In this document: positions 2,246-8,082 of the stretch, in pieces | How positions within the stretch are numbered: the stretch's first letter is position 1 | Layout: each line of letters opens with the position of its first letter | Assembly: GCF_002571385.2 (NCBI RefSeq) | Contig: NW_019217796.1 | Span: 248,001-312,000, forward strand | Source: Stylophora pistillata | Lineage: Eukaryota | Direction: 5' to 3' | Length of the DNA: 64,000 nt | Notes under the pieces: generated by a model | What the model was told of the DNA's origin: nothing | Databases searched by the model: none | The model's input: only the letters and a program-made list of their open reading frames with translations | Made by a program: the position numbers and the translations under genes

Positions 2246-2539
2246 GAATTTTTTCTGGTCTTCACAAGCATCGCTGGGTGCCTCCAAAACGTAGTGATTG
2301 ATGCGTGTTTTTATTTTCTTCATATCATCGGCCTTGGCACGTTCATCTACGGCAGACATGATTTCGTCCAAGGCCACACAGGCACATGCAAGGTACTCCT
2401 CCAAGTGTTTTGTCACAGCGAGCGGTTTAGCTGAAGTTTTAATCACTTTAAGGTAGTTTGAGAAGGCGTCAAACACTTCAGTTTGAGCTTGTTTGATCTC
2501 TGGCGTAGGAGCTTCTCGTATTCCTGCCAATTCTTTCAT
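2246..2539 (-). pseudogene. Small Polinton ORF (MKELAGIRE...), 3' end removed by deletion
   Basis: Paralog at 56473-56886 shows the native C-terminus; TATAAAA on the minus strand near 2715. Confidence 0.6.
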
Positions 2540-2731
2540 GGTGTTTAAGTTATAGTTTAAATCTCCTGCGGTCGCTTCTGTTCTCTAATCGTAAATCATA
2601 CCGATGAGTTTACAACGTACAGACCAAGGGCGAGTTTTAAAAGCAGAAGGCATCGTTCTGTCTTGTGTGCAGTCTAGATATCAAATGGTAAAAAATAGTA
2701 TGTAGTGGCAGTGTTTTATAGAAGCGGGCTG

Positions 2732-3031
2732 TCAATCACGTGTGGGCGTGGACTCTTGATCCGTGAATAGTAGGCGTTTCTTACAAGGGGAAATGTCATC
2801 CTCGTGCTGGTATCGTACAAATTTCAAAAATGCCTGCATCATCTTCCACCGTAATTCCCATGTTTTTCTATCGTAATCGTTCTCGTCGGGGGAAAAGTGT
2901 TTCAAGTACTGTTCGGCATCTCGAATCACTCTTCTTAAGGCATCTTCGTCAGAGTGAAACTCCATGACATCGAAGAGTTCATCCATGGCCAACACACCAA
3001 GTCTGGGGTTCGTTTCTAAGCTAGGGTTCAT
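2732..3031 (-). CDS. Small acidic Polinton ORF of unknown function (MNPSLETNP...)
   Basis: Open 99-aa frame from ATG 3031; 3' part duplicated at 57080-57258; N-terminus resembles ORF 56043-56405. Confidence 0.55.
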   Translation of the reverse strand: MNPSLETNPRLGVLAMDELFDVMEFHSDEDALRRVIRDAEQYLKHFSPDENDYDRKTWELRWKMMQAFLKFVRYQHEDDISPCKKRLLFTDQESTPTRD

Positions 3032-3091
3032 GGTGAATGAGAATGATTTGTATGTAGTCCCACCACGAGTTGATATAGGAAAATCGCACAA

Positions 3092-3222
3092 TAGATAGCG
3101 TCGCGTCCCTGTTAAAAATAGATAGCGTCGCGCCCCTTTCGGTTGGCATCGCGTCCCTTTTATTTGGCATCACGTCCCTTTTCGTTGGCGTCGCGTCCCT
3201 TTTAGTTGGCGTCGCGTCTCTT
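3092..3222. repeat. Tandem array of ~21-bp units (ttggcgtcgcgtccctttt core) between divergent Polinton genes
   Basis: About six degenerate copies of gc(g/a)tcgcgtccct. Confidence 0.9.
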
Positions 3223-3323
3223 GTAAAACAAGGGTTGTAAATCACACGAGAAGGGGGTATTGTTCTCGAGTGTATAAAGCTAGAGCGATTCCTGCACTCA
3301 GCACAGTCGATAGCAGCGACTAG

Positions 3324-4220
3324 ATGCGCCGGATGGAAACGCCAAGGAAGAAACCTTCCAAGGGAGTCAAAAGTAGGAGAAATCATCCGTATGCCAACGA
3401 CGTGCCATTACACTTTAAGAAAGAATCGGCTGAAAAGCACCCTGATGGAAAGGTCATGATCGATGGTATTCCTCAAGTCGCCCAAGAACCCAAAAGCAAG
3501 AAAAACTGGTCTAAGAAGAAAAATTCCAAAAATCTAACCTTAGATATCCCACCCCCTTCACAGACCGTAGAGGAGTGGAAAGAATTTTGGAAACAACGTG
3601 TAGAAGCTTGCAAGGCGCAAGATGAACCGGTAAAGCAAGAACCTGTCATACCTGAGCCTGTGTATGATCCATTAATGCAGCTCGCGAACGCGGTAGATTC
3701 TATAGTGTCCGATGTACGACAGCAACCCATACATCAACAACCTATTTAGCCACCCCACCACCACAAGCGCAAGTCGAGGTCGTAGAGGAAGGAGAGATTC
3801 CCGAAGCAGGTATGGTCTCAGGGTCTATGCACTATGGTACTTTGGAAGAATTACTGGCCGACTTAGGAGTCTGCTACCCTTGCCCCATTCGCAACGCGCC
3901 CATGTACCAATTGAATTCTAAAAAGAATGGTGTCAAGATGTGTTTTTTCGTTGTCCCGTCCACAACTGCCCCGTGTTTACCAGTTTGAAGGATTTCAATG
4001 TGTATTACGAGCAATGTCGCAGACAAGATCACGATTGGTTTACCCTAGACAAGATAGAAGTCATGCAGTGCTAGTGTGGCGAGACTCCTACATTGGTCAT
4101 GTCCAAGAACCAAAAAATTTCAACAAGATGTATTTGCGATGTGGCAGAAAGTATTGCAGTTTATACCATTAGTGGCGATTTATGCCTAACGAAAAAACCA
4201 TGACTATTCTTACACGTTGA
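3324..4220 (+). pseudogene. Polinton accessory protein with basic/Pro-rich N-terminus and C-terminal GRF-type zinc finger
   Basis: Read through stop and frameshifts: CPVHNCPVF...MQC*CGETPTLVMSK..NFNKMYLRCGRKYCSLYH*W; TATAAA at 3273. Confidence 0.6.
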
Positions 4221-5220: not shown

Positions 5221-6192
5221 ATGCCTAACTACGAACACCCGGTACCCTCGGGAGTCTGGGAGGTATTCACCCGTAAGCTAAAGCCCAAAAAAGTCCCCTC
5301 TCGCAAGCGAAAAAGGAATTGGAAAGAAATTTAGCGTACACGCTACACAAACCGCGTCGCCGCCGAGGAGAGTTTGCACCCGTCGTAGTCTTTGTCGAGC
5401 AAAGGGTGGCCGATTTGATCGAAATACAGACTATTGCTAAAGAAAATAAAGGCTTCCGCTACATTTTGATCGTGGTAGATGCCTTTTCAAATTATGCCTG
5501 GGCGGAACCCCTTAAAAAGAAAACGGGGAAAGAGGTGACGGACGCGTTTACCAAAAATCATAAAACAAGGCAGGAAACCTCAGAAATTACAAACGGATGC
5601 CGGGAAAGAATTTTACACCAAGACATTTCAAGCATGGTTAGCGGCGCAAGGCATTCGCCATTTTTCCACGCACGGAGATACCAAAGCGAGTACCGCCCAA
5701 CGATTTATTCGCACCATTTAAATCCAAACTGTATCGCTATTTTACAGCCGCCAATACGTTGAAATATACCGATGTCCTACCCAAACTTTCATCGCAGCAT
5801 ATGCATAGCACCTGTCAAAGTGGACGAGAAGAATAAAACCCAAGTCTAGGAATCGCTGTACGGAGTTGAGACAAAGACACGAAAGAAACCCGTATTTAAA
5901 GTCGGTGATAAAGTGCGTCCCAATAAGAAATTTCGAACGTTTAAAAAATATATATCTACCGGGTTGGACTGAAGAAGTATTTGAAATTCGTAAAGTGGTG
6001 CGTGGGAAAGTCACGACCTATAACATGCGCGAGTTAGACGAGACGCCATTACAAGGAAGTTTCTATTCGTGGGATTTACAAAAAGTGCACGTGGATACAG
6101 TGACGTATTTTCGAGTAGAGAAAGTATTAAAAAGATCGAAAGATAAATTATTTGTCAAGTGGAAAGGGTATCCTAGTAAATATAACAGCTGA
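5221..6192 (+). pseudogene. Polinton retroviral-like integrase with C-terminal chromodomain, frameshifted
   Basis: YTLHKPRRRR, VADLIEI, YILIVVDAFSNYAWAEPLKKKTG, LQTDAGKEF, FKVGDKVR, GWTEEVF, LQGSFY, VEKVLKR..LFVKWKGYPSKYNS across three frames; the third catalytic E reads Q (TAQRF). Confidence 0.95.
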
Positions 6193-6222
6193 AAAAGAAG
6201 ATTTAAAGTAATTGGTGACATC

Positions 6223-6543
6223 ATGAGAGGTGGTGCTTTAAGAAGATTTTATGTACACGTTCCCGGACAACAGAAAGGGGGAGCGATCAATCGATGGGCG
6301 TTACGTGCCCCTCCGTTTATTAGAAGTTGGGATAGACGGTATCCGGAATATCAGGTGGGAGCTGGAATCAAAGACATGGTGAAAGATGTGGCGCGAGAAA
6401 CGGGGAGAGGCCTTAAAAGGACATTCACGCAACGATCCCTGCCAGCATTACCTAGAGGGGTGAAGAGAGGAGTAAAAAGAGCTGCCAAACACGAAGCGAA
6501 GAGAAGAGTATCTAGAAAACTAGACGATATTTTAGCCGATTAA
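6223..6543 (+). CDS. Small basic Polinton/adintovirus core-like protein (pX/pVII-like), open frame
   Basis: 106 aa, R/K-rich, MRGGA, QKGGA and QVGAG motifs resembling adenain cleavage sites; lies between integrase and capsid gene. Confidence 0.7.
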   Translation: MRGGALRRFYVHVPGQQKGGAINRWALRAPPFIRSWDRRYPEYQVGAGIKDMVKDVARETGRGLKRTFTQRSLPALPRGVKRGVKRAAKHEAKRRVSRKLDDILAD

Positions 6544-6545
6544 AG

Positions 6546-6750
6546 ATGGTCTACTGGGGAGAGGCCAGAGAGGGGAGTGGTCATATAGGTGTGGGTACGA
6601 TGCCGTGACGACCATATTAAAAAGGTATAAAAGAAGGAGACAAAGGGGAGGATTTGTACGTATAAAGAAAATACAAAGGCCTCGCCGACTCAGAAACGCA
6701 GGAGACGTTGATGTACCAACATTTCAATCAAAGGCGCAGAACAGAATCTG
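6546..6750 (+). pseudogene. Second small basic core-like ORF, frameshifted
   Basis: MVYWG then shifted frame RGQRGEWSYR...KRYKRRRQRGGFVRIKKIQRPRRLR. Confidence 0.45.
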
Positions 6751-8082
6751 AGTTTGAATTTGTTTCGTGTCCCACCTGTAGACCTTTCTACGGTAAAGCC
6801 ACGTTTTATGAAAGTATCACGTCAGACCTCTAGTATTACACCGATTAAAGTGTACGTGCCTAAACAGACCGAGTTTATCGATTTGATGAAAAGTTTTGTG
6901 GAATTAGATTTGGTGTTTAAAACCACAGACGATGGCAATCTCACGTCCAGAGCGGATAACAACGGTCACATCTTATGGCCCGTCACTAACATAGCACACT
7001 CTCTGTTTAATCAAGTGAATGTGAAACTCAATGGAACTCTCATCACTGAGCAAGTGGACATGTATCACCTGAAAGCCTACATTCAAACCCTCTTGAATTT
7101 CGATCGCGCAGATGGCGAAGCCATCTTAGGACCAGCGGGGTGGAGAAACAATATCGACACACCCGAGACGTATACGGCCAACAGTGTGACTACTGGAAAC
7201 GGAGCCAATGATGCGTTATCCGCCAATCATAAAGCGAGTATCAAAACACAGAAAGCAGATGCCCGATCCTATCATGTGGGAGGAAAACACAGAGTGCTGA
7301 GAATGGTACCCTTTGTGGATATTTTTTAGAAAGGGAAATGGTTAGCGCCCAGGACAGAGATGGATTTAAAATTTTATCTCAATCCGGTAGCGCTTTACTT
7401 TAACGGGGAAGCCAATCCACCCGGGGAAGAAGTCCGTGTCAATGCAGACGATATCAAACTCACCTTTTATGTATGCTTAGTATCCCTCAAATCCTTCGGT
7501 GTATGACAACGCCATGAGCCTCATCACCAAGACCCCAGCTAAATATCTCATCATTCGTACAGAAATGCGACAGTTCCCACTCGATAATGGGGCTGCGTCA
7601 AAAGAAATCATCAATTCGTTTAACGGGAAAATACCACAGAGAATCGTGATGGGAATTCTCGCCACGACAGTCTTTAATGGACAATATGATAAAGATCCTT
7701 TTGTCTTTGGGAAATTTGGAGTGGAGTGGGTCAAACAGATTTGGAATGGGAAAGAATACCCATACGAGACGATGCAATTGAACACAAGGAACGGGTACAG
7801 AGATATGATGGGGTATCATAGGTTTTTGGAAGCGACGGGATGTCTGTATAGAAAGGGTGGAAACATGATTTGAGCTACTGATTGGGGGCATGGAAAGAAT
7901 TGCACTTGTTTGCCTGGTCTAACGTAGCCAACGGAAGACACGACGATCCGCTATTGCTCCCTAAAGAAGAAGGATTTATTAACATCCAGCTGAAATGTGC
8001 AGCCCAAACAGCGCAGAGAACCATTGTGATTTACAGTGAATACGAAAGCATGCTGGAGATCGATGGGTTTAAAGGAGGCTAA
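6711..8082 (+). pseudogene. Polinton major capsid protein (double jelly-roll), disrupted
   Basis: SLNLFRVPP, FIDLMKSFVELDL, PVTNIAHSLFNQVNVKLNG, YHLKAYIQTLLNF, GKIPQRIVMG, FNGQYDKDPFVF, IVIYSEYESMLEID; stops at ~7327 and ~7871 plus frameshifts. Confidence 0.92.

What the first reader, a model, noticed from the sequence alone, without database searches (positions are those of the whole stretch)
2246..8076. A ~7-kb left arm of an endogenous Polinton/adintovirus can be rebuilt from two complementary copies
Seen: copy B (55431-57258) has the AGTAGT end and three leftward small ORFs, and overlaps copy A by ~670 bp. Copy A continues through a repeat array, GRF zinc finger, death-domain-like ORF, integrase, two basic ORFs and the capsid gene. 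Known: integrase plus double jelly-roll capsid plus an AGTAGT end define Polintons. Inference: the accessory block before the integrase looks lineage-specific and may mark an undescribed cnidarian family. pPolB, ATPase, protease and penton are not in the window.
Basis: partly seen in the sequence, partly recalled or inferred. Interest (0 to 1): 0.8.

Follow-up and report, generated by a model that had tools for sequence, protein, structure and literature searches.

The report
Decayed coral Polinton, duplicated fragments
These are two broken leftovers of one old virus-like Polinton insertion in a coral genome, copied along with neighbouring host DNA; it is a known kind of element, with a reshuffled gene order and a small gene family of unknown role near its ends.

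Summary
Both stretches are real Polinton/Maverick sequence, but they are not independent complementary copies. A (2246-8076) and B (55431-57258) are truncated duplicates of one insertion, copied with about 12 kb of host DNA. A third, full-length, decayed copy lies 19 kb beyond the window: 24.5 kb, both TIRs, 6-bp target duplication CGCGTT, pPolB, ATPase, protease-like, PLA2-like and penton-like genes. No joining is needed. The accessory block is only partly lineage-specific: the GRF zinc-finger gene occurs in 10 of 12 distant relatives with enough DNA upstream of the integrase. The death-domain label is unsupported. Two points are new: the three leftward ORFs are paralogues of one helical domain found only in this clade so far, and penton-like genes sit after PLA2, whereas 30 of 30 relatives have them between integrase and capsid. 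The capsid clade includes Pocillopora proteins. Coral polintoviruses are already surveyed (PMC11131425), and this scan has noted other decayed coral Polinton pieces on other DNA. Copy A was near-silent in one RNA run. Verdict: new member of a known kind.

The parts
2246..8076 (+). Copy A: internal piece of the Polinton left arm; left end is a deletion junction (4-bp microhomology at 2242-2245), right end cuts the capsid gene a few codons before its end
   Evidence: K2P 0.023-0.042 to copy C
2246..2671 (-). L2, helical-family ORF (about 180 aa in sister copies); one stop, 3' end lost at the junction
2732..3031 (-). L3, helical-family ORF, 99 aa, intact
3128..3222 (.). 21-bp x 4.5 tandem array between the divergent L3 and zinc-finger genes; related repeats at the same place in 5 other contigs; divergent promoter region (inference)
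3324..4217 (+). GRF-type zinc-finger gene (one ORF of 215-291 aa in sister copies); here in pieces
   Evidence: atlas lead 0.87
4590..4844 (+). Short ORF (57 aa from its Met); pattern fits a helix-turn-helix or half a death domain; family of short orphans
4881..5228 (+). Pre-integrase ORF of unknown function (about 140 aa in sister copies); three stops
5211..6192 (+). rve integrase with C-terminal chromodomain; frameshifted, with stops
6223..6543 (+). Basic ORF 1, 106 aa, intact; homologues precede the capsid gene in 21 of 80 related loci
6543..6751 (+). Basic ORF 2, frameshifted
6721..8079 (+). Major capsid protein gene, in three frames with two stops
55425..55430 (+). Left copy of the 6-bp target-site duplication CGCGTT
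55431..57258 (+). Copy B: left end of the same insertion (AGTAGT terminus, TIR, L1, L2, half of L3); ends at a Penelope-like element
   Evidence: K2P 0.066 to copy C
55431..55801 (+). Left terminal inverted repeat (87% to the right TIR of copy C)
56043..56405 (-). L1, helical-family ORF, 120 aa, intact
56476..57018 (-). L2 in copy B, one stop
57083..57258 (-). 3' half of L3 in copy B
42019..55430 (+). Host block duplicated with the element (fibrinogen-domain gene exon at 45431-45871; multi-copy repeat that received the insertion)
1..2245 (+). Right end of the same host block in the unit that carries copy A

Best explanation
One autonomous 24.5-kb Polinton/Maverick with a PLA2-bearing (alpha-type) virion module integrated into a multi-copy host repeat and made a 6-bp target duplication (shown). 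A block of about 12 kb of host DNA plus the element was then triplicated in tandem on this contig (shown by collinear flanks). One unit kept the whole element (copy C, G000:C13:330783-355294). Copy B lost everything beyond 57258, where a Penelope-like element now sits. Copy A lost its left 1.2 kb by a microhomology deletion and its right 16 kb at a junction with an inverted repeat segment (junctions shown; order of events inferred). All three are decaying. The active ancestor would have worked as Polintons are thought to: protein-primed replication from the AGTAGT ends by pPolB, rve-mediated integration, and possibly a virion of capsid, penton, ATPase, protease and PLA2 proteins (established knowledge, not shown here). 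The left arm is an accessory, probably early, region around a divergent promoter: the GRF protein most likely binds single-stranded nucleic acid during replication (inference; GRF binding is recalled), the 57-aa ORF is most likely a small DNA-binding helix-turn-helix, and the three helical paralogues are most likely non-structural host- or replication-interacting proteins (weak inference).
For: TIRs 362 columns at 90.6%; CGCGTT on both sides of copy C; 9 of 9 examined paralogues of the host repeat (of 43 matches) read straight through the site, 5 of 9 with the exact hexamer once. B and C have the same left junction; the three units are collinear over about 12 kb at 91-97%. pPolB PF03175 E 2e-13 in C; rve 5e-14 and PLA2 PF08398 2.5e-10 in sister copies. 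4 of 7 family loci tested show a TIR pair with a 6-bp duplication, each with different flanks. Capsid sister cluster holds Pocillopora proteins, one named Major capsid protein. RNA run X22 gives depth 0-0.25 over copy A against 1-9 on the left flank.
Against: Neither junction of copy A is bridged among the pieces listed (24 shown, 937 not shown), and contigs at both places run on like the undeleted forms. A equals C at 100% over 2746-3496 while the flanks differ by about 6%, which needs gene conversion or an assembly mosaic. Capsid and penton folds were not modelled, and neither profile hits PDB. Functions of the accessory ORFs rest on pattern and position only; fold searches gave nothing specific. 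Only about 2 in 100 reads of one raw RNA run were read, and contigs of RNA run X8 cover the stretch.
Confidence: 0.88

Rival explanations
1. Copy A is partly or wholly an assembly mosaic or an uncollapsed haplotype of copy C, so there are only two real loci.
For: 100% identity of A and C over 750 bp and 96-99% over the rest of 2746-6629; N gaps near both; no listed contig bridges A's junctions.
Against: A and C differ by K2P 0.042 in the capsid part and 0.058-0.066 in the flanks; A lacks C's 1.1-kb insertion; three units cannot be two haplotypes; A's left junction shows clean microhomology.
Confidence: 0.15
2. A and B are independent insertions of a recently active family.
For: The host flank is itself a multi-copy repeat at 92-94% identity, so a short shared flank alone would not prove common origin.
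Against: B and C share the exact junction and hexamer; the shared block extends about 12 kb and includes a host gene exon; independent family copies have other flanks and are about 80% identical.
Confidence: 0.03
3. The 4590-4844 ORF is a true death-fold decoy and the left arm is a dedicated anti-apoptosis or immune-modulation block.
For: Atlas neighbours with Pfam Death at 0.82 and 0.80, leads only; one repetitive 996-aa hit of the profile has a sub-threshold Death match; anti-apoptotic Bcl2 and IAP homologues are reported in adintoviruses (PMC8502044).
Against: No Pfam hit on 5 of 5 family ORFs and no PDB hit; the 6 short homologues are 57-81 aa, shorter than the 86-position Death model; the weak Pfam hits of one homologue are HTH families.
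Confidence: 0.15

Closest known systems
Polintons/Mavericks of animals (PMC8097293; passages and section 7 read)
   Same: (AGT)2 end motif, TIRs, 6-bp target duplication, 24.5 kb (reported range 12.7-24.6 kb), integrase-capsid-protease module, accessory regions at both ends, most copies degraded.
   Different: The canonical module is integrase, minor capsid, PW, major capsid, protease. Here no penton-like gene lies between integrase and capsid; a tandem penton-like cluster follows the PLA2 gene, and ATPase is on the capsid strand with pPolB opposite.
Stony-coral polintoviruses (PMC11131425; parts 1-4 of 9 read)
   Same: Endogenous elements of mean 23.6 kb with MCP, mCP, ATPase, integrase, PolB in 30 coral genomes; 49 in Stylophora pistillata, the species of the closest named proteins here.
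   Different: The parts read give no family-level gene order and do not mention GRF genes or a terminal helical family. Whether this family is among their elements was not checked; their supplements were not read.
Alpha-class adintoviruses, including the named Stylophora coral adintovirus (PMC8502044; passages, part 2 of 6, text of Fig. S2)
   Same: PLA2-like gene, the stated hallmark of the alpha virion module; integrase, FtsK/A32-type ATPase, adenain-like protease, PolB.
   Different: The labels next to the Stylophora map in the extracted figure text are Cupiennin, SLATT and SSDBP, which would make it another family, but label order is ambiguous. PMC11071308 (passages) says that element has a separate terminal-protein gene; not tested here.
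Distant Polintons in public metagenome contigs (L046-L124)
   Same: Capsid about 40% identical to P0013; GRF gene upstream of integrase in 10 of 12; same protease, ATPase, PZ-like, PLA2 run.
   Different: 30 of 30 carry penton-like genes between integrase and capsid and 0 of 11 after PLA2; none of 80 hits L1-L3, the 57-aa ORF or the pre-integrase ORF.

Membership tests
Polinton/Maverick | 5'-(AGT)2 end motif | tested here: met
   AGTAGT at 55431 and at the left end of copy C and at ends of other copies; C's right end is eroded
Polinton/Maverick | Terminal inverted repeats | tested here: met
   362 columns at 90.6% in copy C; 4 of 7 loci tested. Only the left TIR is in the window
Polinton/Maverick | 6-bp target-site duplication | tested here: met
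   CGCGTT both sides of C; empty sites in 9 of 9 repeat paralogues; GTCAGT, CTCGCG, TACTAC at three other loci
Polinton/Maverick | Retroviral-type (rve) integrase | tested here: met
   rve and Chromo hits in the window pieces, below cut-off; rve 52.8 bits, above cut-off, in a sister copy
Polinton/Maverick | Protein-primed DNA polymerase B | tested here: met
   PF03175 E 2.1e-13 in copy C; not in the window
Polinton/Maverick | Packaging ATPase | tested here: met
   P-loop ORF after the protease; Pox_A32 E 7e-4 (below cut-off) in a sister copy; profile hits 51 of 80 related loci
Polinton/Maverick | Adenain-like cysteine protease | tested here: inconclusive
   No Pfam hit for own-family ORFs; a homologue hits Peptidase_C5 at E 0.002, below cut-off; position after the capsid fits
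Polinton/Maverick | [quoted passage not shown] | tested here: inconclusive
   Cluster member named Major capsid protein by UniRef; length about 460 aa and position fit; no PDB sequence hit; fold not modelled
Polinton/Maverick | Single jelly-roll minor capsid (penton) | tested here: inconclusive
   Label rests on position in relatives (PMC8097293) and on recall of the motif; no Pfam or PDB hit
Alpha-class adintovirus | PLA2-like (PLA2X) gene | tested here: met
   PF08398 E 2.5e-10 in a sister copy, E 0.004 in copy C
Alpha-class adintovirus | PolB in the alpha clade | not tested
   No reference alpha/beta PolB sequences were fetched
Alpha-class adintovirus | Free virions or free-ended genomes | not testable with these tools
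   No close relative in IMG/VR contigs (one 27% hit)
Stylophora coral adintovirus (named element) | Near-identical sequence and gene map | not testable with these tools
   Sequence not found in the collections searched; figure text ambiguous
GRF zinc finger (PF06839) | GRF zinc-ribbon signature | tested here: met
   Through homologues only: 8 of 8 hit PF06839, 3 above cut-off, linked by profile over the finger region; own-family ORFs 0 of 6; weak fold hits to NEIL3 (Z 3.8, rmsd 2.5, 38 aligned) and APE2 GRF (Z 3.4, rmsd 2.0, 40 aligned)
Death domain (PF00531) | Six-helix death fold of about 85 residues | tested here: inconclusive
   No Pfam or PDB hit; ORF and homologues 57-81 aa; atlas leads under 0.9; no model made

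The most novel reading that the evidence does not exclude
The element belongs to an undescribed Polinton clade of pocilloporid corals, marked by a penton-like gene cluster moved out of the canonical integrase-capsid module to behind PLA2, and by a clade-restricted family of small helical proteins, expanded by tandem duplication near both termini, that acts on the host cell or on terminal replication.
Probability: 0.5. Interest if true: 0.4.

Novelty: new member of a known kind. Interest (0 to 1): 0.28.

Why it matters
Modest. It adds a family-level map, with target sites and relative ages, to a group so far surveyed mainly by counting hallmark genes. The moved penton-like cluster is a clean case of module rearrangement in animal Polintons, and the terminal helical paralogues are an orphan family worth a structure. 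The locus also shows host tandem duplication multiplying dead Polinton pieces, which inflates copy counts without any transposition.

Tried and rejected
Pfam on window pieces and sister ORFs gave nothing for L1-L3, the 57-aa ORF, the pre-integrase ORF (only a sub-threshold AmoC match, disregarded), capsid or penton-like ORFs; NCBIfam and PHROGs added nothing. PDB sequence searches with five profiles gave no significant hit. The zinc-finger model was poor (pLDDT 45) and its fold hits weak. The helical-family model (pLDDT 62) matched only generic helical bundles, best Z 8.9, and nothing at E <= 0.001 in BFVD; this does not show a new fold. IMG/VR scans: none, none, and one 27% locus; phage collection none. 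Profile comparison of the pre-integrase and L-family ORFs with same-position ORFs of relatives: no match. Literature searches with no paper: Polinton + GRF + zinc finger, F54H12.2; none of the 12 listed papers holds 'death domain'. Earlier-finding look-ups by place and by sequence were empty. The capsid tree is the quick tree; the careful search did not finish, and ten rows are under half filled.
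Full report
1. Observation. The features are in the sequence. AGTAGT starts at 55431, and 2242-2910 matches 56589-57258 at 91.8% over 670 columns. A 21-bp array of 4.5 units lies at 3128-3222. Both copies are richer in G+C (43.6% and 42.6%) than the DNA between them (37.3%). Compared with better-preserved natural frames of sister copies, copy A holds, in order: L2 and L3 (leftward), then a zinc-finger gene, a short ORF, a pre-integrase ORF, integrase with chromodomain, two basic ORFs and the capsid gene. 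Only L3, the 57-aa short ORF (from its Met) and basic ORF 1 are free of stops and frameshifts. Copy B holds the left TIR, intact L1, L2 with a stop and half of L3.

2. One insertion, three units. Window 349-1893 and 1882-2245 match 52976-54523 and 54581-54944 at about 93%. The window is G000:C13:248001-312000. The host block 42019-55430 recurs just left of the window (238145-248000, running into window 1-2245) and again at 319979-330782, at 91-97%. It includes a fibrinogen-domain exon. The third unit carries a whole element, copy C, at 330783-355294 (24.5 kb). Its TIRs align over 362 columns at 90.6%, CGCGTT flanks both ends, and its left junction equals B's. The target is a multi-copy host repeat (43 matches, a lower bound); all 9 paralogues examined read through the site without the element. 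A's left end joins host to element at a 4-bp microhomology, and its right end joins an inverted copy of 58600-61246. B stops at a Penelope-like GIY-YIG element. Divergences are similar: C's two TIRs K2P 0.071, B vs C 0.060-0.066, flanks of A vs C 0.058-0.066. So insertion and duplication were close in time; no absolute date is possible without a rate. A's interior is closer to C (0.023-0.042, with 750 bp identical), which points to gene conversion or an assembly mosaic.

3. The missing genes. Copy C continues with protease-like, ATPase, PZ-like, PLA2-like and penton-like ORFs on the capsid strand, and pPolB on the other strand (PF03175, E 2e-13), all broken. The names PZ-like and penton-like are my labels from position and recall. 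The family is sizeable: 90 DNA matches to copy A, the longest outside this contig at about 80%, and 71 capsid matches, 4 of which cover 450 or more residues without a stop; both counts are lower bounds. Of 7 loci tested for paired ends, 4 show TIRs with a 6-bp duplication, at 90.6-99.6% TIR identity, so the family inserted over a long period.

4. Relatives. The closest named proteins are annotated genes of Stylophora pistillata. The sister capsid cluster holds Pocillopora verrucosa and P. meandrina proteins, one named Major capsid protein. The host is therefore most likely a pocilloporid stony coral (inference). In a quick tree of 54 capsid rows, the 9 rows from this genome and 7 sister rows form one branch (SH-aLRT 100), apart from 36 rows at about 40% identity (careful search unfinished, ten short rows).

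5. Is the accessory block lineage-specific? Partly. I searched 80 related loci (79 metagenome loci, from the best 80 of 250 confirmed stretches, plus 1 viral contig). The zinc-finger profile hits 12 of 80, and 10 of the 12 loci with at least 3 kb upstream of the integrase. The match covers the finger region, and 8 of 8 homologues tested hit Pfam GRF. So the gene is GRF-type and widespread. L1, L2, L3, the short ORF and the pre-integrase ORF hit 0 of 80; only 12 of these loci reach far enough to be informative. L1, L2 and L3 are paralogues (hhalign probability 91-96%, E 3e-9 to 1e-6) of an all-helical domain. Their profile found 17 proteins, 5 named from Stylophora and 12 unnamed (word-based search, 54-268 aa only). 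Members also lie near the right end of several copies. The short ORF found 8 proteins among 1.84 billion representatives, 6 of them 57-81 aa; nothing supports a full death domain. The complete order L1-L2-L3, zinc finger, short ORF, pre-integrase, integrase is seen in 4 of 8 mapped loci with an integrase outside the window (C13, C201, C854, C160), partly in 2 (C111, C734), and rearranged in 2 (C206, C769) (C4 holds only integrase-to-capsid pieces, and C105 has no integrase match).

6. Gene order. In relatives, penton-like ORFs lie between integrase and capsid in 30 of 30 informative loci and after PLA2 in 0 of 11, as in the canonical Maverick module (PMC8097293, section 7). In this family none lies between integrase and capsid, and they follow PLA2 in 7 of 7 copies where PLA2 was seen. 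This is the clearest family marker.

7. Activity. In raw RNA run X22 (about 2 in 100 reads read) depth over copy A is 0-0.25, against 1-9 on the left flank. RNA run X8 is held as contigs that cover the stretch, genes and spacers alike, which cannot separate RNA from DNA. Two further runs hold the element with allelic differences; no listed piece bridges A's junctions.

8. Literature. PMC11131425 (parts 1-4 of 9) reports polintoviruses in 30 coral genomes, 49 in S. pistillata. PMC8502044 (passages, part 2 of 6, Fig. S2 text) defines PLA2X as the alpha-module hallmark and maps a Stylophora coral adintovirus; its slides and Table S1 could not be read and may bear on identity. PMC8097293: passages and section 7. 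PMC11071308, 10.1101/2022.05.25.493380 and 10.64898/2026.10.13.758929: passages only. Searches found no description of this gene order or of the helical family; Repbase and Dfam were not available, so absence from print is not shown.

9. Verdict. A decayed, tandemly duplicated coral Polinton: a new member of a known kind. Interest 0.28.

Noticed in passing
G000:C13:336347-337483 (L027:4350-5480); window 18353-18706: A 1.1-kb insertion in copy C's second basic ORF carries tandem 249-bp units, each with a predicted tRNA-Thr(AGT), and inverted repeats; similar units lie inside the C769 element and once in the window at 18453-18525.
   Followed up: partly
window 8076-10354 and 58600-61246: The DNA right of copy A is an inverted copy (93%) of the DNA right of the Penelope-like element that ends copy B; the link between the two truncations is unexplained.
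   Followed up: no
window 57259-58600: Penelope-like retroelement remnant with GIY-YIG frame and inverted ends; a related piece interrupts the ATPase gene of copy C.
   Followed up: partly
window 45431-45871 and 17477-17872: Exons of two fibrinogen-domain host genes (PF00147), part of a tandem gene cluster whose duplication carried the Polinton.
   Followed up: partly
window 2746-3496: 100% identical to copy C while neighbouring DNA differs by 1-8%: gene conversion or assembly mosaic.
   Followed up: partly
window 52976-55430: Unnamed multi-copy host repeat (92-94% between the best copies) that received the insertion; no Pfam match in its frames.
   Followed up: partly
G000:C769:42906-65412: Sister element with 1176-bp TIRs that enclose an L3-like ORF and with the zinc-finger gene inverted relative to the integrase: a second sub-family.
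   Followed up: partly
G000:C160:552107-557353: Left-arm block present twice in tandem at the end of one sister element.
   Followed up: no
L050:2469-3197 and similar frames in L048, L078, L085, L112, L120: Distant relatives carry a DprA/SLOG-like gene next to the GRF gene (PF02481 E 3e-6 for L050), which was not seen in this family's left arm.
   Followed up: no
named proteins P0001, P0002, P0004-P0006, P0009, P0015, P0176: Several annotated coral gene models appear to be spliced-together pieces of decayed Polinton ORFs, e.g. zinc finger fused to capsid.
   Followed up: no
window 43405-44997: Degenerate 10-bp tandem arrays (CATTTACCTT-like), duplicated with the host block.
   Followed up: no
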